Source: a virus
Lineage: Duplodnaviria > Heunggongvirae > Uroviricota > Caudoviricetes
DNA length: 21,851 bases
Virus record (IMG/VR): IMGVR_UViG_2547132277_000002
Direction: 5' to 3' (one strand)
The notes beneath the pieces are model-generated. The model searched no databases. It saw nothing but the letters and a program-made list of their open reading frames with translations, and was not told where the DNA came from. This document shows, piece after piece, positions 2,443-15,401 of the stretch. Every line of letters begins with the position of its first letter. The stretch's first letter is position 1. A program made the position numbers and the translations under genes.

Positions 2443-2517
<75 letters not shown>

Positions 2518-2520
2518 ATA

Positions 2521-2596
<76 letters not shown>

Positions 2597-2598
2597 AC

Positions 2599-2675
2599 TG
2601 GACCGCCACCGGGGACTCGAACCTCGCACACTCAACTTAAAGAGTTGACGCTCTTTCCTGATGAGCTAGTGGCGG
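2599..2675 (-). tRNA. tRNA of uncertain identity (manual fold gives anticodon UUU, Lys-like, with atypical C at position 33)
   Basis: 77 nt, CCA encoded; acceptor CCGCCAC/GTGGCGG (C1-G72), D-arm GCTC-ATCAGGAAA-GAGC, anticodon stem TCAAC/GTTGA, loop UCUUUAA, T-loop TTCGAGT. Needs tRNAscan-SE. Confidence 0.5.
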
Positions 2676-2676
2676 T

Positions 2677-2752
2677 TGGTGGCCCTTGCTGGATTTGAAC
2701 CAGCGACCTGGCGATTATGAGTCGCTCGCTCTCACCACTGAGCTAAAGGGCC
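2677..2752 (-). tRNA. tRNA with CAU anticodon, ileX/ileZ-like (tRNA-Ile2; elongator Met not excluded)
   Basis: 76 nt, CCA encoded; GGCCCTTTAGCTCAGTGGTGAGAGC...CTCATAA...GGTTCAAATCC...AAGGGCCACCA closely resembles E. coli tRNA-Ile2 as recalled; anticodon loop CUCAUAA. Confidence 0.7.
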
Positions 2753-2984: not shown

Positions 2985-3896
2985 GTGGCTATTTCTCTTG
3001 CGCAAAGGATGCTTTTGATGACGCAGCAACTCGAAAACATGCCAATAACAGAAATCGAAATTGCCTACGGTGGAGAGGCATACGCAGATAATCAGATCGA
3101 CGCGAAAACATTAGGCGAAGCCTTAACCTCTCTTAGTGCCCTGATTGAACACGCCGAAAAAATAATTAATGGCGAAACAGCAGAGCCGAAAGTCAACATC
3201 AAGGCAACAAAAGAAGGTTCATTTACTTTGCTTGTTGCTGTGATGGGGAGCATAAAAACTATTAACGCCCTTGGCCTCGTTGCAGGTGGTGGAGTTGCCG
3301 CAGGTGGCGTACTCGGGATAATCGAATGGCTCAAAGGGCGTAAAATCAGCTCCATTGTCGTCGATGAACAAAAAGATACAGCAGAAATCGAAGTGGATGG
3401 TGAGAAGGTTAAATGCAGTAACGACATTCAAAAATTAATAACCAGTCCAATCATCCGAAAAGAACTGGATAAATTAATCTATAAACCCCTGCAGACTGAA
3501 AAACCATCCACGTTCTCAGTTTCACAGCAGAAGCATAAGGTAGTCAGGGTGACGCAAGCTGAAGCAGTAAGTTTTAAAACTGCAAAATCCACCTTTGTCG
3601 AGAAAACGCACGTAACGACACGCCAAGCTAATGTACATTTTGCTAATGTTCGATTCAAGCAAGGCAAAAGCTGGGATATCATCCTGCCAAATGGCGAAGA
3701 AGTTAGCGCATCTATGAAAGATGAGGCTTTTCTTGAACGGGTTGAACACAACCAAGCAGCATTCTGTAAGGGTGATCTTTTTGTTGTAGAACTGACAGAA
3801 ACAACAAAAGAAACAAATGGCGCGCTGTCTAAACCACGCTATAGTATTACTAAGGTTATACGCCACAGAGCGGCGGCAGATAGGAAACTACTTTAA
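2985..3896 (+). CDS. Cargo gene A: unknown protein with a central Gly-rich hydrophobic segment (probable start ATG 3018, 292 aa)
   Basis: ORF-track start 2985 is GTG; ATG at 3018 has AAGGA 8 nt upstream. Hydrophobic stretch FTLLVAVMGSIKTINALGLVAGGGVAAGGVLGIIEWL; no motif I can assign. Opposite strand to every flanking phage gene. Confidence 0.6.
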   Translation: MAISLAQRMLLMTQQLENMPITEIEIAYGGEAYADNQIDAKTLGEALTSLSALIEHAEKIINGETAEPKVNIKATKEGSFTLLVAVMGSIKTINALGLVAGGGVAAGGVLGIIEWLKGRKISSIVVDEQKDTAEIEVDGEKVKCSNDIQKLITSPIIRKELDKLIYKPLQTEKPSTFSVSQQKHKVVRVTQAEAVSFKTAKSTFVEKTHVTTRQANVHFANVRFKQGKSWDIILPNGEEVSASMKDEAFLERVEHNQAAFCKGDLFVVELTETTKETNGALSKPRYSITKVIRHRAAADRKLL

Positions 3897-3899
3897 ATC

Positions 3900-4145
3900 A
3901 TGTCAATCCTAAGCATTATGCTTTACATCACTGTATTCATGGCTGTCGCAGCGACGGTCAGATATGCTGTGCTTAGGTTCTTGGTTTGGGTAAAGCCGAA
4001 TGCGTATATTGAACTAACCTACACCGATCCTGAAGGCAGAACCGCTAAAAGGAAAGTCAGCGTTAGAAACGAAAATGACGCAGAAGAGTTGGCGCTACTG
4101 CTACGCGAACTCAAAACTCGCAACGAAGCAAGTGCAGGAAGGTGA
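3900..4145 (+). CDS. Cargo gene B: small protein with N-terminal transmembrane helix and charged C-terminus
   Basis: 81 aa; ILSIMLYITVFMAVAATVRYAVLRFLVWV hydrophobic; starts 4 nt after gene A stop. Confidence 0.55.
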   Translation: MSILSIMLYITVFMAVAATVRYAVLRFLVWVKPNAYIELTYTDPEGRTAKRKVSVRNENDAEELALLLRELKTRNEASAGR

Positions 4146-4532
4146 ATGGCGAACACTAAATCCTACCTGGCAATGCAGGCATGGTTTACCACCCTTATCA
4201 CTGCGGGATTGAATTTCCTTTTTGACTGGCTTCCTCAATTAGCCTTCTTCAAATCATTGGCGCCTGGAGCTGCTGTCGGCTTATCTCATGTGGTAATTCT
4301 TCTTATCGCTTACATAGGTTTGCCTACGCTTAATGATGTAAGAATGAAAAGGGAAATAAAAACGGCCAGAAAATTCATCACGAACTGCCTGGCCAACCCT
4401 AACCTAACACCAGACCAAATTGCGCACTACAACCAATGTCTTATCGATCTAGACAATAAGCTATTAAAAAACATAAATATTCGTATTGATGCTTTATCTG
4501 ACGCCGAATCGAAAGCTCAAGCAAACGAGTAG
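4146..4532 (+). CDS. Cargo gene C: predicted membrane protein (two hydrophobic helices) with a soluble C-terminal ~70 aa
   Basis: 128 aa; TGA-ATG junction with gene B; SD GGAAGGTGA upstream; helices WFTTLITAGLNFLFDWL and AAVGLSHVVILLIAYIGL. Confidence 0.6.
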   Translation: MANTKSYLAMQAWFTTLITAGLNFLFDWLPQLAFFKSLAPGAAVGLSHVVILLIAYIGLPTLNDVRMKREIKTARKFITNCLANPNLTPDQIAHYNQCLIDLDNKLLKNINIRIDALSDAESKAQANE

Positions 4533-6320: not shown

Positions 6321-6593
6321 TTACCTCCAGATGCGTTGCTGGAATGTGCGGGACGGACGCGGTGGGCGTTCGGAATAAGGGAGCCTGACAGAAATTATCC
6401 AGTGTCGGAAGTCAGGGCCGAGGTCTTTCTGAAAGTCGTACCCACGCCTGCGGTAGTTCTGAATCAGCCATTCGGCCTGTTCTTCAGTGCATGGGGCATG
6501 CTGGTACCAGTCATATTTGAATGTATGAGAACGCCGCCCGTGCCAGCTGGCAAGGTCGGTATCAGAATTGTGATGTTTGGTATTGTGCGCCAT
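6321..6593 (-). CDS. Hypothetical small phage protein (nin region)
   Basis: 90-aa ORF ending 1 nt before the DUF968 gene start (coupled); no recognised motif. Confidence 0.4.
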   Translation of the reverse strand: MAHNTKHHNSDTDLASWHGRRSHTFKYDWYQHAPCTEEQAEWLIQNYRRRGYDFQKDLGPDFRHWIISVRLPYSERPPRPSRTFQQRIWR

Positions 6594-6660
6594 CGGTTTT
6601 CTCTGCTGGCGCAGCAGGTGCCAGTTGTTCAGGCTGGCCTGTAGATTGTAAACCAGAATA

Positions 6661-6690
6661 CGTAAAACAAAAAACCCGCCGAAGCGGGTT
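6661..6690 (-). terminator. Rho-independent terminator downstream of the HTH-peptidase gene
   Basis: AACCCGC-CGAA-GCGGGTT stem at 6673-6690; on the minus strand followed by TTTTTTGTTTT. Confidence 0.6.
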
Positions 6691-6694
6691 ATGC

Positions 6695-7816
6695 CTAGTG
6701 AATTTTGCCTCTAAGAGTTCGGTAAGATTGTAGTGAAACAACATCACCACTTCCTGGCAGTTCATGAACCGCAGGAAGATCATCTCCTACTAACTCATAA
6801 AAAATGTCCACTTCTATATCCATTTCATCAGCTATACGCTGTGGGTCGTATCCTAACTCTTCAAATAAAAACGATAAAGCCCGACGGAATAACTCAGGAC
6901 GCTCATGAGGGATTAGATAATCTTCTTTTTCATCAATAGCTTCCCCTTTCCGTTTCAACCCCATAAATGCAGTTCTGTACTGCTCATCAGTCAAAAGTCC
7001 TAATTGATGAGCCCTGTAAACAATGGCAGCCTTACTTACTTTCCATGTCAACTTAAATTGGCTTAGTCCCTGCCAATTTATCCTCCCCCCCACAGGTCTT
7101 GGAAAATATTTCGCCATCGACGTTCTGGGAAGCAACAGAGCAGAGGCAAAACGGTTTGCCTGGGATTCAGTTAATCTATCCCCAGTAGAAATTCCTTCAT
7201 GAAGAATCAAATGGGCAACCTCATGAGCAATATCAAAGCGTTGCCTACAAGGTGAATTTTTAGCTGTATTTCGAACAATAAAAGGCCTTCGTAGAGGAAC
7301 AGACAGTGCATCTACTTCATCCGAAACGGAGTCAAATGAAGTAACAAACGCCCCAAGTTTCTCGGCAAGGCGAGTCATATTTTCAATTGGGCCAAAGCCT
7401 AAGCCCCACTCAATACGACATTTTTCTGCCGCTCGCTCGATATCTTCTTGTGTATGGACACGAAATTCAGGAAATCGAACAGGTGACAAATTAAGGTTAT
7501 CTTCAAATACATCAATAAAACGACGATAAAACTCAGCCTTAGCGAGTGTTGATAGCTTCGTTGACATCCTTGTCGAGGCGCGTTTACGAAAATGTACAAT
7601 CTCTTCATTAACAGGAGAATGTTCCTGCCCTTCGAAAAAGGCGGGCTTCACGCGCAAAACCTCGGCTAATTTATTTATAAGCTCTGGGGATGGAGTAGCT
7701 GAACCAGACTCCAGTCGCTGTACATACTGGCGTGTTTTTTCAACCTTCTCAGCAACCTGCTCCAGAGATAGCTCGTGATACAGACGAGCAAGTCTTAAAT
7801 TAGTACCGTTAAACAC
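6695..7816 (-). CDS. Fused XRE-family HTH regulator / ImmA-IrrE (COG2856) zinc metallopeptidase
   Basis: 373 aa; N-terminal HTH LRLARLYHELSLEQVAEKVEKTRQYVQRLESG; HEXXH zinc motif in DIAHEVAHLILHEG; GTG start 11 nt after the upstream gene stop. Confidence 0.8.
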   Translation of the reverse strand: MFNGTNLRLARLYHELSLEQVAEKVEKTRQYVQRLESGSATPSPELINKLAEVLRVKPAFFEGQEHSPVNEEIVHFRKRASTRMSTKLSTLAKAEFYRRFIDVFEDNLNLSPVRFPEFRVHTQEDIERAAEKCRIEWGLGFGPIENMTRLAEKLGAFVTSFDSVSDEVDALSVPLRRPFIVRNTAKNSPCRQRFDIAHEVAHLILHEGISTGDRLTESQANRFASALLLPRTSMAKYFPRPVGGRINWQGLSQFKLTWKVSKAAIVYRAHQLGLLTDEQYRTAFMGLKRKGEAIDEKEDYLIPHERPELFRRALSFLFEELGYDPQRIADEMDIEVDIFYELVGDDLPAVHELPGSGDVVSLQSYRTLRGKIH

Positions 7817-7826
7817 ATTTCACCCA

Positions 7827-8420
7827 CTATTTGCTATTTTGTTTCTTTTCCTTCTCAGTCTTAGACGCACTGATAGGTTCTAGTTCGATAGGTACCGGTG
7901 CTGGAGGTACATCATCGACAGAGTTCAGCATAACAACACGGTCCGCACCATATGTCCAAGTTGACACGATCTCACCAAACACGTTATAGCCATTAAAAAT
8001 GACTCTACCACCCTCGCCTTCAAATTCAGGCTTTTCAACCACAAAGCGATGCATAGTTGGAGTAGTCTCCTCTGACTCAAAGAGTCGATCAGCATCATTT
8101 CTTTTGAAAAAACCGCGTTTCTTGGGGTTATCTGCGTCATCAGTAAAGAAACGAATAGGGACATTCCCAATTGAAAACGTAAGATCCATGCCAGGATTAA
8201 GTAGTCTTAACCAGTCATATGTCTTTCGTACGCACATTTGTAGCAACGCCTGCCGCTGACGCCCAAATGTACAACCACCACGAGTGTAATTATCATCATA
8301 GGGCGATGACAATAACTCATGAGTAATATCCTGTATCCTGAGCAACTCCTCAGCTATAATGGTTAAACGCACCTCTGTTAACTCAGGAAAGAACTCCCAA
8401 GGGAATGGATGGTTCTGCAT
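7827..8420 (-). CDS. Unknown protein, first gene of the two-gene cassette (197 aa from ATG 8420; ORF track extends to 8468)
   Basis: ATG at 8420 has GGAG 8 nt upstream; the longer start would overlap promoter-like TTGACA boxes. No recognisable domain. Confidence 0.55.
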   Translation of the reverse strand: MQNHPFPWEFFPELTEVRLTIIAEELLRIQDITHELLSSPYDDNYTRGGCTFGRQRQALLQMCVRKTYDWLRLLNPGMDLTFSIGNVPIRFFTDDADNPKKRGFFKRNDADRLFESEETTPTMHRFVVEKPEFEGEGGRVIFNGYNVFGEIVSTWTYGADRVVMLNSVDDVPPAPVPIELEPISASKTEKEKKQNSK

Positions 8421-8469
8421 AGACACTTCTCCGCCTAATCCGTGCAAAAAACGACTTTTGTCAACCAAG

Positions 8470-8498
8470 ATATTGGTGCATATTCATAATTTTGTCAA
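8470..8498 (-). promoter_or_regulatory. Possible promoter for the two-gene cassette (weak -10)
   Basis: Minus-strand TTGACA (plus 8493-8498) directly after the terminator T-run, 17-bp spacer, -10 CAATAT (3 of 6); a second TTGACA at plus 8459-8464. Confidence 0.3.
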
Positions 8499-8499
8499 C

Positions 8500-8523
8500 A
8501 AAAAAAAACCCCGCCGAAGCGGG
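8500..8523 (-). terminator. Rho-independent terminator upstream of the two-gene cassette (downstream of the ParA-like gene)
   Basis: CCCGC-CGAA-GCGGG stem at 8510-8523; on the minus strand followed by T9 (plus A-run 8500-8508). Hairpin nearly identical to the one at 6673-6690. Confidence 0.65.
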
Positions 8524-8870
8524 TTAAGTGCGGGTGCGTTGAGGATGCCTGACACATCAGAGGTGGCGAGGGATTTCTCCCTCGCCTGGTCTCTTACTCC
8601 TCAGGTTCGTAAGCTGTGAAGACAGCGACCTCCGTCTGGCCGGTTCGGATTCGTACCTCGCAGAGGTCTTTCCTCGTTATCAGTACCGCAACAATTTCGT
8701 ATTCATGATTCATTTCATCTAAAACAGTTCATAAACCTAAATAAATTCAAAAAATCACAACACAAATAAATATAAATTATCTCATCCTGAAGAACGATAG
8801 GATTATTTAGAATTAATAACAATTAATGTAACAATAATTATCAATCCAGATTATTCAAATAAAATGTCAT

Positions 8871-9917
8871 TTACCATATGGAGTTGTGAATGAACTTTAA
8901 TTCATTTTTTATTTTGTTAACAGATAAATTCACGGATGTCCTAACTCTATTCACAGTCATTGCATCTCCTGGATTTAACAACTCTAATGGTTTAGACTTA
9001 GCACTTGACATTCTGCCACTACCCAGAAAATCATCAAGAATCACAATGTGATTATTAGGATCATCTGTTGTAAAATTACTAATATTTTGTCGAATTACCT
9101 CTCTTACAGCTTCGATGTACATTTTTGTCTGTTGATTTGGTTTATTCCTTGCTCCTGCCACTGTTGACCATCCGCAATGGGTAATAACCACCATCTGAAT
9201 TTTTGGTGTATGGCCATCAGACGGCATTATCTTTCTAAATTCTGATGTTGGTTTAGTCAGAGTATCAATAAGTAATCTTAATGAATTAATCGATTGCTGA
9301 TCTGTCCTCACTGGAACTATTAAAGCATCTGTTGCATGCCAAGATAAATGCGTCGCTCCAGAGAAAAAAGGTGATGTATCAATTAACGCTTTTGTAGTAC
9401 CAGTTTCAACCATTTCTCTGGCTATTTCTTTCTTCAGAGAAAAAAGAATTGTATCAATAACAACCTGCTGAGTAGCCCCAGAAATTGTTCTGGCTTGAGC
9501 CAGAGCATTCGCCATTTGCGTAGGTAGAAGATAAAGTTGACTATCAGATTGAATAAAATAGTTATTCTTGCCCGCAAACCAAGCATTAGTTGATGATACT
9601 AGCTTTGCAGCACGCGTTGCAAATCCAAGCCCTGGAACAAAATAAGGCATTAAGAGGTCATTTGCAGTTGTGCTAGACGAAGATGCATAATTATTGTCAA
9701 AAAAATATGATAAATTTCCTTGCGGGCACGTATCCACGATTAATGCGTTATCCGCCAAATATGACAGATTAAAAGTTAAAGATGTCTTACCAATGCCTCC
9801 CCGTAAATTACATACTGTATATTTATCATATTTCGGCAAATTAAGACTTCTTACATTACCGTCAGCAACTTCGAATTGACGCTCTATCAGAGCATTAACA
9901 TTTGATTCACTAGTCAT
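8871..9917 (-). CDS. ParA/MinD-family (SIMIBI) P-loop ATPase-like protein, standalone, AT-rich
   Basis: 348 aa; deviant Walker A NLRGGIGKTS (Arg at the signature-Lys position), IVDTCPQGN (ParA DxDPQ-type motif), ALIDTSP Walker-B-like; sampled lines ~34% GC versus ~50-55% in the phage backbone. Confidence 0.65.
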   Translation of the reverse strand: MTSESNVNALIERQFEVADGNVRSLNLPKYDKYTVCNLRGGIGKTSLTFNLSYLADNALIVDTCPQGNLSYFFDNNYASSSSTTANDLLMPYFVPGLGFATRAAKLVSSTNAWFAGKNNYFIQSDSQLYLLPTQMANALAQARTISGATQQVVIDTILFSLKKEIAREMVETGTTKALIDTSPFFSGATHLSWHATDALIVPVRTDQQSINSLRLLIDTLTKPTSEFRKIMPSDGHTPKIQMVVITHCGWSTVAGARNKPNQQTKMYIEAVREVIRQNISNFTTDDPNNHIVILDDFLGSGRMSSAKSKPLELLNPGDAMTVNRVRTSVNLSVNKIKNELKFIHNSIW

Positions 9918-12039: not shown

Positions 12040-12465
12040 TCAATGCACAGCCACAATATTTCCTGCAGGGCCACCACGATTCATCTGGTTGAAACCAGCG
12101 ATCGCCACTGCGACAAAATCATCAGCGTCTCTCACCAGTCGTTCCCGCGTCTCCACTAGTTCCCGAAAATACGCTGAGCTATGACTGCGCATTCGGGCCA
12201 CCAGCAGAGGTGGCATTGCTTTTTCGATAGCTGGTAACAACGCCTGAATTTTTTTAACCGCATCAGGGGTGTCTTTCTCCACCCAGCGGAAAATTTTCTG
12301 AGTATTGCGAGCCAGGGCTTCCGGATGGCTGTCGTCATACAGTTCCGGGAACGTCATTCCCAGCTCGAAATACGCTTTGGTAATTTTCGCAGCCGGTACT
12401 TTTTCGCCGTCCGGATGCGCCCAGGCATTCATCGCCATGCGGATGTGTTCATGCTTGATTTTCAT
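12040..12465 (-). CDS. YdaT-like (cII-type) regulator of Rac-like prophages
   Basis: 141 aa beginning MKIKHEHI and ending VH, as recalled for Rac YdaT; start overlaps the stop of the upstream Cro-like gene (ATGA). Confidence 0.65.
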   Translation of the reverse strand: MKIKHEHIRMAMNAWAHPDGEKVPAAKITKAYFELGMTFPELYDDSHPEALARNTQKIFRWVEKDTPDAVKKIQALLPAIEKAMPPLLVARMRSHSSAYFRELVETRERLVRDADDFVAVAIAGFNQMNRGGPAGNIVAVH

Positions 12466-12716
12466 GAATCAACTCCCATCAGCTTTTTCGTAGTAGTTTT
12501 ATTCCTGCCAATAGTTAAAATTGCATCGGCAGAAAATAATCCGTTTGATGCAAGAGCGATTTTTTCAGCGTAATTTGTTTCGCCGGTATATTCTGTGCGA
12601 GGCAATTTTCCGTTATCCATCCATTTATAGATTGCTCTTTGGCTGACACCACAAACGTCGGCCACAACAGCAACGCGAACAGTTTTGATTACATCTTCAA
12701 GTGTTTTCTGGTTCAT
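12462..12716 (-). CDS. Cro-like HTH regulator (YdaS family)
   Basis: Probable start ATG 12716 (SD GAGGGTG 4 nt upstream), 84 aa; HTH VADVCGVSQRAIYKWMDNGKLP; divergent from the repressor gene. ORF-track start 12788 lies in the operator region. Confidence 0.65.
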   Translation of the reverse strand: MNQKTLEDVIKTVRVAVVADVCGVSQRAIYKWMDNGKLPRTEYTGETNYAEKIALASNGLFSADAILTIGRNKTTTKKLMGVDS

Positions 12717-12795
12717 ATCACCCTCACAATGTGAACTTTGAGTACATGCCATAACAGAACTGACAGTACATTCAAGAGCGAATATCATTGAACTT
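12717..12795. promoter_or_regulatory. Divergent promoter/operator region (OR-like) between Cro-like and repressor genes
   Basis: Two AGTACAT motifs (12741-12747, 12765-12771) and inverted repeat TGAAC-TTATG-GTTCA (12789-12803) spanning the repressor start codon. Confidence 0.5.
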
Positions 12796-13215
12796 ATGGT
12801 TCATGAAGATAAAGCGCGTAAAGAGTTCGCCAGTAGGCTTGCGCTAGCCTGTGAAAACGCTGGTTATGAACAACATGGAAGGCAGGCAGAAATTGCCCGT
12901 CGAATGAAATTAACACCAAAAGCGGTTAGCAAATGGTTTAATGGCGAAACAATTCCTCGCCGGGAGAAATTAAGGGAATTAGCAACACTAATAGGAACAA
13001 CACCAACCTATCTTTTGGGAGAGGATACAGAAGAAAGTGGACAGGTACGTTTCTATCAGGAGTTAAATCCAAGACAAAAAATCATCATTGACCTTCTGGA
13101 CGAGCTCCCTGACAGTGAGACAGATGAACTTTTAAAAACTCTTGAAGAGAAAAAACAGAAGTACAATGCAATTTACGAAGAGTTAGCACGAAAGAAAAAA
13201 CAAAAAGCCTCTTAA
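12796..13215 (+). CDS. Prophage repressor, HTH-only (RacR/CI-like; no LexA-type autopeptidase domain)
   Basis: 139 aa; HTH GRQAEIARRMKLTPKAVSKWFNGE; same strand as the early-left genes and int; divergent from the Cro-like gene. Confidence 0.65.
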   Translation: MVHEDKARKEFASRLALACENAGYEQHGRQAEIARRMKLTPKAVSKWFNGETIPRREKLRELATLIGTTPTYLLGEDTEESGQVRFYQELNPRQKIIIDLLDELPDSETDELLKTLEEKKQKYNAIYEELARKKKQKAS

Positions 13216-13290: not shown

Positions 13291-13331
13291 ATGTACTAAA
13301 AGTACTTTACAACAATGAACGCAAAGTACAT
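13291..13331. promoter_or_regulatory. OL-like operator cluster downstream of the repressor gene
   Basis: Palindrome GTACTAAAAGTAC (13293-13305) and further AGTACAT-type motifs at 13291-13297 (inverted), 13301-13307 (variant), 13325-13331. Confidence 0.4.
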
Positions 13332-13512
13332 TATATGCCTACCACCCACCCCGCCCCACAGAATGCAGGGCAATACTTCGAGTTACCAGGCAGTGGTCAG
13401 GGGTTAAGTAGCCAGCCCGAGGCGTAAGAACATGACGGCAGGGTTCAACTTTAATAACTATGCAGCAGGTTTTTGTTCCGCTACCCCGGCGTTAAGGGGA
13501 AATGAGGTCAGC

Positions 13513-13668
13513 ATGGATACTATCGATCTTGGCAACAGCGAATCTCTGGTATGTGGCGTGTTCCCCAACCAGGACGGTACGTTCACCGCGATGACGTATA
13601 CCAAAAGCAAAACGTTTAAAACCGAAAATGGTGCCCGTCGCTGGCTGGAAAGAAACTCAGGTGAGTGA
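13513..13668 (+). CDS. Small early-left protein, YdaF-like (DUF1391-like by recollection)
   Basis: ATG 13513 with GAGG 6 nt upstream; 51 aa MDTIDLGNSESLVCGVFPNQDGTF...; the ORF-track N-terminal extension lacks an RBS. Confidence 0.5.
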   Translation: MDTIDLGNSESLVCGVFPNQDGTFTAMTYTKSKTFKTENGARRWLERNSGE

Positions 13669-13669
13669 T

Positions 13670-13798
13670 ATGGATTTCGACACAATCATGGAAAAGGCTT
13701 ACGAAGAATACTTCGAAGGCCTTGCCGAAGGCGAAGAAGCTCTCAGCTTCAGCGAATTTAAACGGGCGCTTTCCAGCTCGGCAAAATCTAACGGCTGA
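13670..13798 (+). CDS. Small acidic early-left protein (YdaG-like), 42 aa
   Basis: ATG at 13670 two nt after the previous stop; MDFDTIMEKAYEEYFEGLAEGEEALSFSEFKRALSSSAKSNG; below the ORF-track length cutoff. Confidence 0.45.
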   Translation: MDFDTIMEKAYEEYFEGLAEGEEALSFSEFKRALSSSAKSNG

Positions 13799-13827
13799 TA
13801 AGCGAAACAGCACCGCGAGGAATCAGT

Positions 13828-14046
13828 ATGCAGAAACGAGAACCCGTCATCATCGCGCCAGACTATACCGATGATGAGCTTTATGAGTGGATGCGCCAGA
13901 AAATTAAGGCCGCGCAGGACCTGAAATGGGCCAATGAAGCCAAGGCTAAGCAGGCTGAAAATCTGTCCGCTCTGGAGCAGGATATCACCAATTTGGAAAA
14001 AGCAGCGGCATTAAGCATTGCCAGAATGATTACATACCCACGTTAA
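13828..14046 (+). CDS. Hypothetical early-left protein
   Basis: 72 aa; SD AGGAA 6 nt upstream of ATG; coiled-coil-like C-terminus. Confidence 0.5.
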   Translation: MQKREPVIIAPDYTDDELYEWMRQKIKAAQDLKWANEAKAKQAENLSALEQDITNLEKAAALSIARMITYPR

Positions 14047-14068
14047 TAGCTAACCAACGAGGCTAATA

Positions 14069-14443
14069 ATGGAATTTAAAGATTTACCAATGCAATTCCA
14101 GGAAATGGCAGCGAATATAGTTCGTTCCCAACTGGCGACTCTTGACCTGAGTACCGTAGAAAAAGAAACCATCGATACTATATCCGGTAACGTGCGTCGT
14201 GCCTTTATCGGTCTGTACGAAGAGAAGCAGCTCTCTGATAACCAGGATTTACATGAAAAATACCTCCTGGAATTAATGGATATCATTGATAAGGGGTTTG
14301 GCTTGTTAATGAAAAAGAAAGGGATTCGGATAGAACCCCTTAAGAACCATTTTACTGAGTGCGGCATTAATCCCAGCGATTTAAACCATCCCGCCACAGA
14401 TGGGAGTGTTACAGTTAGCCATGAAATTTCGATTAATCATTAA
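14069..14443 (+). CDS. Hypothetical early-left protein
   Basis: 124 aa; SD GAGG upstream of ATG. Confidence 0.5.
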   Translation: MEFKDLPMQFQEMAANIVRSQLATLDLSTVEKETIDTISGNVRRAFIGLYEEKQLSDNQDLHEKYLLELMDIIDKGFGLLMKKKGIRIEPLKNHFTECGINPSDLNHPATDGSVTVSHEISINH

Positions 14444-14654
14444 AATCAATTGCACTTTCAATAAGTGATGCCATCTCATTGCATTTTGTTGAATTCATCT
14501 TACGCAATGAGTCACAAATTTCCGCTGGCTTTGATGACGCAGGCAACTTAGCAGCAAGTAGCATAATTGCCGTTTTTATAGCAGTGAGCTCATCCGCAAG
14601 TCCAGCAGGAGAAACATCGTGGTTAAACTGGATATTTACATTTTTACTAGTCAT
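14433..14654 (-). CDS. Small convergent (antisense-oriented) gene inside the early-left operon, 73 aa
   Basis: ATG at 14654 with AGGAGG 5 nt upstream; 3-prime end overlaps the stop of the 124-aa plus-strand gene by 11 bp. Confidence 0.4.
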   Translation of the reverse strand: MTSKNVNIQFNHDVSPAGLADELTAIKTAIMLLAAKLPASSKPAEICDSLRKMNSTKCNEMASLIESAIDFND

Positions 14655-15047
14655 TTCACCCTCCTGAGGGTTGGTAATTAAGGAGTTCTCCACGGGTCAG
14701 GTGGAGTGCGTGCGCCGGACACGGGTGAGCATCCGGCACTGGCAGTTTACTGGAAGGATATATCCCTGAAAAGTCAGGACATAACGCGAAAGCGCACGGC
14801 GAAGTTATTCTGTCTGTACGGTGTCGTTAAATTTAATTCGACCGTGCGCTTCCGGTTGTGGCAATCCGCGAAATGGCGCGGCGGTAAGTATGGCGGGGTT
14901 ATTCCTTCCCCGTTGAGGACACCGGGTTGTCAGGTTGACCATACGCTTAAGTGACAACCCCGCTGCAACGCCCTCTGTTATCAATTTTCTGGTGGCGTTT
15001 AGCGGTATCAGTTTTACTCCGTGACTGCTCTGCCGCCCTTTTTAAAG

Positions 15048-15195
15048 TGAATTTTGTGATGCGGTGAATGCGGCTAAGCGCACGCGGAACAGTTAAAACC
15101 AAAAACAGTGTTATGGGTGGGTTCTCTGTATCCGGCGTTAATTGTTAACTGGTTAACGTCACCTGGAGGCACCAGGCACCGCATCACAAAATTCA
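15048..15195. repeat. Perfect 19-bp inverted repeat (TGAATTTTGTGATGCGGTG / CACCGCATCACAAAATTCA) enclosing 110 bp with nested GTTAAC palindromes
   Basis: Arms at 15048-15066 and 15177-15195 are exact reverse complements; internal CGTTAATTGTTAACTGGTTAACG at 15136-15158; right arm ends 18 bp before the next start codon. Confidence 0.6.
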
Positions 15196-15213
15196 TTGTT
15201 GAGGACGCGATAA

Positions 15214-15401
15214 TGGAAACGTTATTACCAAACGTTAATACGTCTGAAGGTTGTTTTGAAATTGGTGTCACTATCAGTAACCCAGTATTTACTGAAGATG
15301 CCATTAACAAGAGAAAACAAGAACGGGAGCTATTAAATAAAATATGCATTGTTTCAATGCTGGCTCGTTTACGTCTGATGCCAAAAGAATGTGCACAATG
15401 A
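15214..15401 (+). CDS. Small hypothetical protein (62 aa from ATG 15214)
   Basis: SD GAGGA 8 nt upstream of ATG 15214; the ORF-track start 15108 lies inside the inverted-repeat region. Confidence 0.4.

What the first reader, a model, noticed from the sequence alone, without database searches (positions are those of the whole stretch)
12796..13215. Repressor is HTH-only, implying a non-SOS induction route
The 139-aa repressor has an N-terminal HTH but no room for a LexA/CI-type S24 autopeptidase domain, so RecA-stimulated self-cleavage is unlikely. Induction, if any, would need an anti-repressor or protease; the ImmA-like metallopeptidase fusion at 6695-7816 is a candidate encoded in the same prophage.
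Basis: inference. Interest (0 to 1): 0.35.

Follow-up and report, generated by a model that had tools for sequence, protein, structure and literature searches.

The report
Short non-cleavable DicA-type prophage repressor
The 139-residue repressor of this defective E. coli prophage really does lack the self-cleaving domain of lambda CI, but it is an ordinary member of the known DicA/Gifsy class of short repressors, and the nearby "ImmA-like" protein belongs to a separate anti-phage toxin-antitoxin system, not to an induction pathway.

Summary
ORF 12796-13215 (+) encodes a 139-aa protein with an XRE helix-turn-helix domain, a disordered linker and a two-helix C-terminal tail. It has no S24 peptidase domain, no linker Ala-Gly site and no Ser/Lys dyad.

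It sits in the cI position of a defective lambdoid prophage between potB and potC. It is divergent from a Cro-like gene and flanked by five conserved operators (three at OR, two at OL). It is homologous, tail included, to DicA (Qin) and GtgR (Gifsy-2), the known class of non-cleavable short repressors. Klebsiella phages carry the same DNA-binding domain, Cro and operators, but with an S24 domain in place of the tail.

Phage Tritos has an identical repressor. The published study reports only two other LF82 prophages as ciprofloxacin-induced. This prophage has no LexA box and no Rem-, GftA- or DinI-like gene, so direct RecA cleavage is excluded. Stochastic repressor/Cro switching, or an unidentified trans-acting antirepressor, is the likely route.

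The proposed ImmA-like candidate (6695-7816) is RmrA, the antitoxin of a RosmerTA defence pair. It occurs in 22 of 5,426 E. coli genomes, against 1,046 carrying the repressor. This is a new member of a known kind, of low interest.

The parts
12796..13215 (+). Repressor gene, 139 aa plus stop. Residues 1-76 form the XRE-type HTH domain, 78-88 a disordered linker, and 89-139 a two-helix DicA-like C-terminal tail.
13060..13212 (+). Coding region of the conserved C-terminal tail (consensus LxPRQxxLLxLFxxLPxSExDELLxxLEEKK...). It takes the place of the S24 domain found in the Klebsiella/Raoultella homologues.
12733..12747 (.). Operator O1 of OR (GAACTTTGAGTACAT)
12757..12771 (.). Operator O2 of OR (GAACTGACAGTACAT), 24 bp from O1; overlaps the -35 of the PRM-like promoter
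12790..12804 (.). Operator O3 of OR (GAACTTATGGTTCAT, one mismatch to the pattern); overlaps the repressor start codon. It is conserved at the same position in Tritos, the O157 Rac-like prophage and Klebsiella phage 2 LV-2017.
12760..12788 (+). PRM-like promoter (CTGACA-17-TATCAT). The ATG lies 8 nt after the -10 hexamer with no Shine-Dalgarno sequence, so the mRNA is probably leaderless (inference).
   Evidence: precedent for paaR2 and cI in PMC8630535
13291..13331 (.). OL: two operators (13291-13307, palindromic, and 13315-13331) 24 bp apart, overlapping a promoter-like site (TTTACA-17-CATTAT, 13306-13334) upstream of ydfA
12462..12716 (-). Cro-like (YdaS-like) HTH protein, 84 aa, divergent from the repressor. 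It is 97-98% identical in every locus that carries this repressor and 59% identical to the Cro of Klebsiella phage 2 LV-2017.
12040..12465 (-). YdaT-family protein, a CII-like regulator
13513..15401 (+). Leftward early operon predicted to be repressed from OL: ydfA, ydfB, ydfC, a 124-aa ORF, DicF sRNA (14987-15038) and dicB (15213-15401)
6695..7816 (-). RmrA, the HTH plus M78/ImmA-like peptidase antitoxin of a RosmerTA defence system. It is not functionally linked to the repressor.
7827..8468 (-). RmrT, the RosmerTA toxin (the PGAP gene call starts at 8420)

Best explanation
The gene encodes the lysogeny-maintenance repressor of a defective lambdoid prophage, and it belongs to the DicA/GtgR/GfoR class of short, non-cleavable repressors.

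Shown: the N-terminal HTH domain is associated with a 15-bp operator motif (GWAC-N5-GTACWT) present three times between the repressor and cro genes and twice upstream of the ydfA-dicF-dicB operon.

Inferred: the two-helix C-terminal tail replaces the S24 domain as the dimerisation or cooperativity module. Bound repressor shuts off PR (cro, ydaT-like, replication genes) and PL (ydfABC, DicF, DicB, exonuclease, xis, int), and it autoregulates a probably leaderless PRM transcript.

Shown: with no cleavage site and no Ser/Lys dyad, the protein cannot be self-cleaved on RecA filaments. The prophage carries no LexA box and no Rem-, GftA- or DinI-like gene.

Inferred from DicA/DicC and PaaR2/YdaS: derepression most likely occurs by stochastic or stress-biased flipping of the repressor/Cro bistable switch. 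A trans-acting antirepressor encoded elsewhere in the genome remains a possible additional input.

Shown by family assignment and distribution: the HTH-ImmA protein at 6695-7816 is the antitoxin of an independent RosmerTA defence cassette. The cassette occupies the variable slot that holds the antirepressor gene rem in Qin.
For: Domain content and all-helical model.

Homology including the tail: DicA, 29% identity over 112 aa, E 5e-15; Gifsy-2 GtgR, 25% over 101 aa, E 3e-10, including the LLxLFxxLPxxE helix. The tail alone finds 40 representative clusters, always at the C-terminus of short proteins. A sample of these was aligned, and the N-terminal domains are diverse HTH domains.

Operators: 4 exact sites against 0.10 expected, plus a fifth with one mismatch. 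The half-sites are conserved and the spacers vary in Tritos, the O157 Rac-like prophage, a Salmonella prophage and Klebsiella phage 2 LV-2017.

Gene order matches Qin: repressor, ydfA, ydfB, ydfC, DicF, dicB.

S24-bearing counterparts share the N-terminal domain (recognition helix TPKAVSKWFNGE identical), the Cro (59%) and the operators.

LexA-box scan: it recovers the positive controls umuD (18/20) and Gifsy-2 dinI (17/20), but nothing at 13/20 or above in this prophage.

No Rem, DinI or gene-after-dinI homologue was found.

Published experiments: Tritos, with the identical repressor, makes virions spontaneously. The study names only Gally and Cyrano as ciprofloxacin-induced, and trimethoprim lowered Tritos production (PMC9928086). 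DicA/DicC switches spontaneously in about 1% of cells, and this is independent of Rem (PMC10448788). PaaR2/YdaS is bistable and does not respond to mitomycin C (PMC8630535).

RmrTA assignment and distribution.
Against: No experiment has been done on this exact prophage, and DNA binding, dimerisation through the tail and leaderless translation are all inferences. The Tritos induction result comes from a polylysogen in which another prophage (Gally) lyses cells quickly, which could mask weak SOS induction. The paper states no ciprofloxacin value for Tritos in the text read here. Antirepressors are small and diverge fast, so failing to find one by BLAST or HMM does not prove that none exists. Only the prophage and about 40 kb of flanking sequence of the host genome were examined. 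The NCBIfam DicA subfamily model scores below its cut-off (56.8 against 101 bits), so the protein is a family-level homologue of DicA, not an orthologue.
Confidence: 0.7

Rival explanations
1. One reading: the HTH-ImmA metallopeptidase at 6695-7816 cleaves or otherwise inactivates the 139-aa repressor, as ImmA does to ImmR in ICEBs1, and so provides the induction route.
For: The protein has a genuine M78/ImmA-IrrE peptidase domain. It lies in the same prophage. It occupies exactly the slot that holds the DicA antirepressor gene rem in Qin. In the Tritos lysogen both the repressor and the ImmA-like protein are expressed. ImmA-type proteases do cleave HTH repressors (PMC10440598).
Against: It matches RmrA over its full length (E 4e-201) and RmrT (E 7e-92) lies immediately upstream, which is the RosmerTA toxin-antitoxin architecture. 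It is not adjacent to the repressor, being 5 kb away. It is found in 22 of 5,426 genomes and the Tritos type in 41, against 1,046 genomes with the repressor. The same repressor (99-100% identical) occurs with a 32%-identical RmrA in Tritos and with none in the sequenced regions of vB_EcoS-673R7 or the O157 Rac-like prophage. The cassette is flanked by 25-29-bp repeats, like an exchangeable moron. RmrA and the repressor coexist in the stable Tritos lysogen.
Confidence: 0.04
2. Indirect SOS induction as in the Gifsy prophages: a LexA-repressed small antirepressor, encoded elsewhere in the host genome (for example on another prophage), binds the repressor and removes it from DNA.
For: The repressor is a homologue of GtgR and DicA, which are inactivated by GftA/GfoA and Rem respectively. 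Gifsy antirepressors act in trans on non-cognate repressors (PMC3121763; PMC10448788). The tail is conserved across repressors that have different DNA-binding domains, which fits a shared protein partner.
Against: This prophage has no LexA box and no DinI-, GftA- or Rem-like gene, and neither do the sequenced parts of Tritos, vB_EcoS-673R7 or the O157 Rac-like prophage. The LF82 study does not report Tritos among the ciprofloxacin-induced prophages. The rem slot is occupied by rmrTA.
Confidence: 0.15
3. The gene is a decayed remnant, that is, a truncated or frameshifted CI whose S24 domain was lost, with no regulated function.
For: The prophage in strain B2C is defective: the portal and tail genes are fused, the lysozyme gene is split by an IS21-family element, and only 29 kb remains. 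Close homologues with the same N-terminus do carry S24.
Against: The tail is not leftover sequence. It is a conserved module, confidently predicted as two helices, and shared with DicA and 40 representative clusters. No S24 remnant follows the gene. The identical protein is the repressor of the plaque-forming phage Tritos. The gene is at least 95% identical in about 1,027 E. coli genomes, with intact operators.
Confidence: 0.02

Closest known systems
DicA of cryptic prophage Qin (E. coli K-12)
   Same: Same size (135 against 139 aa) and same architecture: an XRE HTH domain plus an LLxLFxxLPxSE two-helix tail, with no Ala-Gly site. Same genomic position: divergent from a cro-like gene and upstream of ydfA-ydfB-ydfC-dicF-dicB. 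Pairwise E 5e-15.
   Different: Only 29% identical and below the NCBIfam DicA cut-off. The Cro partner is different (YdaS-like, not DicC) and so are the operators. The DicA antirepressor gene rem is absent here, and its slot holds rmrTA.
GtgR/GfoR repressors of Salmonella Gifsy prophages with LexA-controlled antirepressors GftA/GfoA
   Same: Short (136-138 aa) non-cleavable HTH repressors sharing the first tail helix motif; E 3e-10. Same class as defined by Lemire et al. 2011.
   Different: Gifsy prophages carry a LexA box, dinI and an antirepressor module downstream of the replication genes. No such module is found here.
PaaR2/YdaS/YdaT switch of CP-933P (E. coli O157:H7) and RacR/YdaS/YdaT of Rac
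   Same: An HTH-only CI analogue divergent from YdaS-like Cro and YdaT-like CII analogues. The paaR2 mRNA is leaderless. The switch is bistable and insensitive to mitomycin C (PMC8630535).
   Different: No sequence comparison with PaaR2 was made here. PaaR2 is followed by a PaaA2-ParE2 toxin-antitoxin pair. In O157:H7 the present repressor occupies the racR position of the Rac-like prophage at ttcA.
S24-bearing CI repressors of Klebsiella phage 2 LV-2017 and Raoultella prophages (also HK022 CI)
   Same: [quoted passage not shown] The Cro is homologous (59%) and the operator motif and OR/OL layout are the same.
   Different: Those proteins continue with a SAG cleavage site and an S24 Ser/Lys domain (235-251 aa), so they are expected to be cleavable with RecA. 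Here that module is replaced by the tail of about 50 aa.
ImmR/ImmA of ICEBs1 and phi105-type elements
   Same: An HTH repressor without a self-cleavage domain, and an M78 metallopeptidase encoded in the same element.
   Different: immA lies directly downstream of immR and is a stand-alone protease. Here the peptidase is fused to its own HTH, is paired with a toxin, lies 5 kb away and does not co-occur with the repressor.
SinR/SinI of Bacillus subtilis (an analogy in how it may work, not a family assignment)
   Same: An XRE HTH domain followed by a short two-helix C-terminal oligomerisation element that a small antagonist protein can target. SinR appears among the fold matches.
   Different: There is no sequence relationship in the tail, and the fold match is poor outside the HTH domain (rmsd 12 A). 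No stand-alone tail-mimic ORF was found in any locus examined.

Membership tests
LexA/lambda CI-type self-cleaving repressors (MEROPS S24) | C-terminal Peptidase_S24 domain (beta-rich fold) | tested here: not met
   No PF00717 hit. The AF2 model is all-helical. Fold and profile searches match only the HTH domain. No S24 remnant in the window.
LexA/lambda CI-type self-cleaving repressors (MEROPS S24) | Ala-Gly (or Cys-Gly) cleavage site in the linker and a Ser/Lys catalytic dyad | tested here: not met
   Aligned S24-bearing homologues have SAG, GDSM and KRL, and the 139-aa protein has none of them. Its only AG is at residues 22-23, inside the HTH domain.
DicA/GtgR/GfoR/RacR class of short non-cleavable lambdoid repressors | Protein of about 135-160 aa with an N-terminal XRE HTH domain and no self-cleavage motif | tested here: met
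DicA/GtgR/GfoR/RacR class of short non-cleavable lambdoid repressors | Sequence homology extending into the C-terminal helical tail (LLxLFxxLPxxE) | tested here: met
   DicA E 5e-15 over residues 30-137. GtgR E 3e-10, and the tail HMM matches GtgR residues 89-110. The NCBIfam DicA model aligns residues 29-137 but scores 56.8 bits against a cut-off of 101, so the protein is not a DicA orthologue.
DicA/GtgR/GfoR/RacR class of short non-cleavable lambdoid repressors | Occupies the cI position: divergent from a cro-like gene, with repeated operators at OR and OL | tested here: met
DicA/GtgR/GfoR/RacR class of short non-cleavable lambdoid repressors | Inactivated by a small antirepressor protein (Rem, GfoA, GftA) | tested here: inconclusive
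   No Rem-, DinI- or GftA-candidate homologue and no tail mimic in the window, Tritos, vB_EcoS-673R7, the O157 locus or the B2C flanks. Antirepressors diverge fast and may be encoded elsewhere. This needs a genetic screen.
ImmR/ImmA repressor-protease pairs | The M78 protease gene is adjacent to, and co-inherited with, the repressor gene | tested here: not met
   It lies 5 kb away with seven genes in between. 22 genomes (plus 41 with the Tritos type) against 1,046 with the repressor. The repressor is 100% identical where RmrA is 32% identical.
ImmR/ImmA repressor-protease pairs | The protease cleaves the repressor | not testable with these tools
   Requires co-expression and a western blot or an in-vitro cleavage assay.
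RosmerTA toxin-antitoxin defence system (for 6695-8468) | RmrA antitoxin with an N-terminal HTH and a Zn-peptidase (M78/ImmA) domain | tested here: met
   PADLOC RmrA PDLC03943, E 4.3e-201, residues 1-368 of 370. Pfam HTH_3 plus Peptidase_M78.
RosmerTA toxin-antitoxin defence system (for 6695-8468) | An adjacent RmrT toxin gene in the same operon | tested here: met
   PADLOC RmrT PDLC03929, E 6.9e-92, immediately upstream on the same strand with a 10-bp gap.
RosmerTA toxin-antitoxin defence system (for 6695-8468) | Toxicity neutralised by RmrA, and protection against phage | not testable with these tools
   Only precedent from other RosmerTA systems is available.

The most novel reading that the evidence does not exclude
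The conserved tail of about 50 aa could be more than a dimerisation element. It could be a shared docking module through which one class of small antirepressors (Rem-like or still unknown) or a host factor inactivates many repressors that have different DNA specificities. This allele is present in 19% of complete E. coli genomes, including O157:H7 Rac-like prophages, and has no known inducer. It would then be wired into a cross-prophage, SOS-independent induction network. The existence of S24-bearing and tail-bearing versions of one immunity type would mark a switch between two induction logics.
Probability: 0.15. Interest if true: 0.5.

Novelty: new member of a known kind. Interest (0 to 1): 0.2.

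Why it matters
The finding has modest importance. It shows that a very common E. coli prophage immunity type is uncoupled from direct RecA cleavage. This type is present in about one complete genome in five, in functional phages such as Tritos, and in EHEC Rac-like prophages. It controls toxic cargo (DicB, DicF, YdaT-like) whose expression affects cell division and phage resistance. The trigger for this allele, if there is one, is still unknown. The natural S24-for-tail swap on an otherwise conserved immunity region offers a clean experimental handle. The check also prevents a mis-annotation: the HTH-ImmA protein is a RosmerTA defence antitoxin, not an induction protease.

Tried and rejected
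1. LexA boxes. CTGT-N8-ACAG with up to one mismatch gave 8 hits against 7.25 expected. A 20-mer consensus scan recovered the umuD and Gifsy-2 dinI boxes but found nothing at 13/20 or above in the prophage.

2. A Rem homologue. tblastn of K-12 Rem against the window, Tritos, vB_EcoS-673R7 and the B2C flanks gave only noise, with E at least 0.07.

3. A Gifsy-type module. DinI and the gene after dinI (STM1020.1n, presumed to be gftA) gave no hit at E 0.1 or better.

4. The 90-aa ORF at 6321-6593 as a positional analogue of rem. This was rejected because K-12 has its own copy of that ORF (70% identical) next to rem. The ORF belongs to phrog_1212, of unknown function.

5. A SinI-like stand-alone mimic of the tail. 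A tail HMM searched against six-frame translations of all loci found only the repressors themselves. The short database hits look like gene fragments.

6. An S24 remnant downstream, or a frameshift: none found.

7. Three one-mismatch operator-like sites inside rmrTA (7297, 7592, 7898). These were treated as chance: the mismatches fall in the core bases, and the Tritos rmrTA has none.

8. PHROG and Pfam scans of 20 neighbouring ORFs for annotated antirepressors (Ant, KilA-C, Bro): none found.

10. The vB_EcoS-673R7 phages turned out to be predicted prophages from genome sequences, so they give no induction data.

Full report
**Source of the window.** The window is 100% identical to E. coli strain B2C (NZ_CP035874). 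It covers most of a lambdoid prophage inserted between potB and potC. The prophage is defective. Only about 29 kb remains, the portal and tail genes are truncated and fused, tail-fibre genes are fragments, and the lysozyme gene is split by an IS21-family element. From right to left the window holds potC, int, xis, a RecE-like exonuclease, ydfD, dicB, DicF, ydfC, ydfB and ydfA. These are followed by the repressor, a divergent Cro-like gene, a YdaT-like gene and a replication gene. Next come DUF977, a ParA-like gene, a hok remnant, rmrT, rmrA, a 90-aa ORF, a DUF968 gene, rusA and Q. Two plus-strand moron ORFs, four tRNAs and the lysis genes complete the window.

**Checking the observation.** ORF 12796-13215 (+) is real and cannot be extended upstream. 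Pfam finds only HTH families (HTH_3, residues 29-73, E 1.8e-9) and no Peptidase_S24. An AlphaFold2 model built on 33 sequences (mean pLDDT 81.8) is entirely helical. Five helices (2-74) form the HTH domain, residues 78-88 are disordered, and helices 92-103 and 106-138 form a hairpin-like tail. Foldseek against the PDB returns only HTH-domain matches: a LexA N-terminal domain, the ImmR DNA-binding domain, P22 C2 and SinR. It returns no S24 fold. A profile search of PDB sequences never aligns beyond the HTH domain.

The strongest evidence is comparative. Proteins of 235-251 aa from Raoultella and Klebsiella prophages share the first 100 or so residues, at 62-72% identity, with the recognition helix TPKAVSKWFNGE invariant. 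They then continue with a SAG cleavage site, GDSM and KRL, the S24 signature. The 139-aa protein and its E. coli and Salmonella relatives carry a different 50-residue tail instead. No S24 remnant exists in the window.

**What the protein is.** It is a working lysogeny repressor. The same protein (100% identical) is annotated as the CI repressor of phage Tritos from strain LF82, a phage that forms plaques. A motif GWAC-N5-GTACWT occurs exactly four times in the window against 0.10 expected. Two sites, 24 bp apart, lie between the repressor and cro. Two more, also 24 bp apart, lie 76-116 bp after the repressor stop codon, on a promoter-like site upstream of ydfA. A fifth site with one mismatch overlaps the repressor start codon. 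All five sites keep their half-sites while the spacers vary in Tritos and in an O157:H7 Rac-like prophage. A Salmonella prophage keeps the OL pair and one exact OR site, and the S24-bearing Klebsiella phage 2 LV-2017 keeps four sites. This is a lambda-like layout of three OR sites and two OL sites.

A PRM-like promoter (CTGACA-17-TATCAT, 12760-12788) ends 8 nt before the ATG, and there is no Shine-Dalgarno sequence. The mRNA is therefore probably leaderless, as shown for lambda cI and paaR2. This is an inference.

**Family assignment.** BLASTP against K-12 DicA gives 29% identity over 112 residues (E 5e-15), running through the tail. The comparison with Gifsy-2 GtgR gives 25% over 101 residues (E 3e-10), including the LLxLFxxLPxxE helix. 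NCBIfam's DicA subfamily model aligns residues 29-137 but scores below its cut-off, at 56.8 against 101 bits. The protein is therefore a family-level homologue of DicA and not an orthologue.

The tail alone, searched against 1.84 billion representative proteins, finds 40 clusters. In every one the match lies at the extreme C-terminus of a short protein. In the aligned set the HTH domains average 28% identity to the query and the tails 52%. That comparison is biased, because the hits were selected by their tails. The gene order repressor, ydfA, ydfB, ydfC, DicF, dicB is that of Qin. This is the class that Lemire et al. 2011 defined as short non-cleavable repressors (GfoR, GtgR, DicA, RacR).

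**How induction probably works.** Direct RecA-stimulated self-cleavage is excluded by the architecture. The architecture does not exclude coupling to SOS, however. Gifsy repressors are removed by antirepressors transcribed from a LexA-controlled promoter next to dinI, and DicA is removed by Rem. I looked for both kinds of module.

A LexA-box scan recovers the umuD box (18/20) and the Gifsy-2 dinI box (17/20). It finds nothing at 13/20 or above in this prophage, and the simple CTGT-N8-ACAG pattern occurs at the chance rate. Rem, DinI and the gene after dinI have no homologue in any sequence examined. Those sequences were the window, the B2C flanks, Tritos, vB_EcoS-673R7 and the O157 Rac-like prophage. 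No stand-alone ORF resembles the tail.

Published data agree with this picture. Tritos produced about 2.8e6 genomes per mL spontaneously. The authors name only Gally and Cyrano as strongly induced by ciprofloxacin, and trimethoprim lowered Tritos production 3.4-fold (PMC9928086). There is a caveat: LF82 is a polylysogen in which Gally lyses cells quickly. For DicA/DicC, about 1% of cells switch spontaneously in a DicC-dependent, Rem-independent way, and heat and urea raise this fraction. PaaR2/YdaS is bistable and insensitive to mitomycin C.

The best-supported mechanism is therefore a repressor/Cro bistable switch that flips stochastically or under physiological stress. An unidentified trans-acting antirepressor remains possible.

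**The ImmA-like candidate.** The 373-aa protein at 6695-7816 has HTH_3 and Peptidase_M78 domains. It matches the PADLOC RmrA model over its whole length (E 4.3e-201), and the ORF immediately upstream matches RmrT (E 6.9e-92). Together they form a RosmerTA toxin-antitoxin defence system.

Distribution argues against any link to the repressor. The repressor gene is present in 1,046 of 5,426 complete E. coli genomes. This rmrTA is present in 22 genomes and the Tritos-type rmrTA in 41. Tritos has the identical repressor, but its RmrA is only 32% identical. vB_EcoS-673R7 and the O157 Rac-like prophage carry the repressor at 99% amino-acid and 98.6% nucleotide identity respectively. No rmrA is present in their sequenced regions.

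In the LF82 lysogen the Tritos ImmA-like gene and its neighbour are expressed constitutively as morons alongside the repressor. That is what a defence system would do.

The cassette at 6611-8499 replaces exactly the 423-bp segment that contains rem in Qin. The flanks are homologous, and a 25-29-bp direct repeat lies at both ends of the cassette. The same boundaries enclose the unrelated Tritos variant, however, so this is better read as a hotspot for exchangeable cargo.

**Novelty.** HTH-only lambdoid repressors, and their independence from direct RecA cleavage, are established for DicA, RacR, GtgR/GfoR and PaaR2. This allele is a new member of that kind. Three things go a little further. First, one immunity type (operators, Cro and DNA-binding domain) exists with either an S24 domain or the tail. 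Second, the tail has no solved structural relative and no assigned partner. Third, this very common allele has no known trigger.

Noticed in passing
window 6611-8499 (rmrA 6695-7816, rmrT 7827-8468; repeats at 6663-6691 and about 8500-8528): The RosmerTA cassette replaces exactly the 423-bp rem-containing segment of K-12 Qin, between the ydfU/90-aa-ORF block and the hok region. It is bounded by a 25-29-bp direct repeat. Tritos has a different rmrTA (RmrA 32% identical) within the same boundaries, so this looks like a hotspot for exchangeable defence or antirepressor cargo.
   Followed up: partly
window 12796-13215 compared with L007 2456-3211 (Klebsiella phage 2 LV-2017): This is a natural domain swap. 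The same operators, a Cro 59% identical and a repressor DNA-binding domain with an identical recognition helix occur with an S24 domain in the Klebsiella and Raoultella phages and with the DicA-like tail in E. coli and Salmonella. The junction lies near the shared IDLLD motif, around residue 100.
   Followed up: partly
window 12760-12798: The PRM-like -10 hexamer ends 8 nt before the repressor ATG and no Shine-Dalgarno sequence is present. This suggests a leaderless mRNA, as for lambda cI and paaR2.
   Followed up: no
window 14987-15038 (+) and 15213-15401 (+): A DicF sRNA (Rfam, 68.6 bits) and dicB lie downstream of the repressor-controlled promoter. The repressor therefore silences cell-division inhibitors, as DicA does in Qin, and may be essential in this host.
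   Followed up: partly
window 2985-3896 (+), also 3900-4145 and 4146-4532 (+): A 303-aa ORF matches the PADLOC candidate defence family PDC-S42 (E 3e-53). Together with two small ORFs of unknown function it lies on the opposite strand between Q and the tRNA cluster. This is a second possible defence moron.
   Followed up: no
window 2446-2752 (-): A cluster of four tRNA genes, annotated in B2C as Gly, Thr, Lys and Ile, lies upstream of the lysis genes.
   Followed up: no
window 1 to about 1025, and L004 32143-42001: An IS21-family element (ISEc62, istAB) splits the lysozyme gene. The portal and tail genes are truncated and fused, and the prophage is only about 29 kb long. It is cryptic and cannot make virions.
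   Followed up: partly
window 8871-9917 (-): An orphan ParA-like ATPase (348 aa; AAA_31, phrog_164) lies between the hok remnant and DUF977, with no obvious ParB partner. Tritos has an unrelated gene in this position.
   Followed up: no
residues 128-139 of the repressor (window 13177-13212) and alignment A3: The extreme C-terminus is a lysine-rich stretch ending in K-A-S. Twelve of 33 family members end in K/x-[A/V]-S after a basic run. From memory this resembles basic C-terminal ClpX recognition motifs. That is an untested lead for control by proteolysis.
   Followed up: no
L009 10553-11220 (Salmonella prophage, GCA_028156025.1): In the Salmonella homologue (65% identical) a HigB/HigA-like toxin-antitoxin pair is inserted between the repressor gene and OL. 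This mirrors the paaR2-paaA2-parE2 arrangement of CP-933P. That prophage also carries a KilA-N protein between rusA and the DUF968 gene.
   Followed up: no
window 7297-7311, 7592-7606, 7898-7912: Three one-mismatch matches to the operator pattern fall inside rmrA and rmrT, where about 0.3 would be expected for that length. The mismatches are in core bases and the Tritos rmrTA has no such sites, so they are probably chance.
   Followed up: partly
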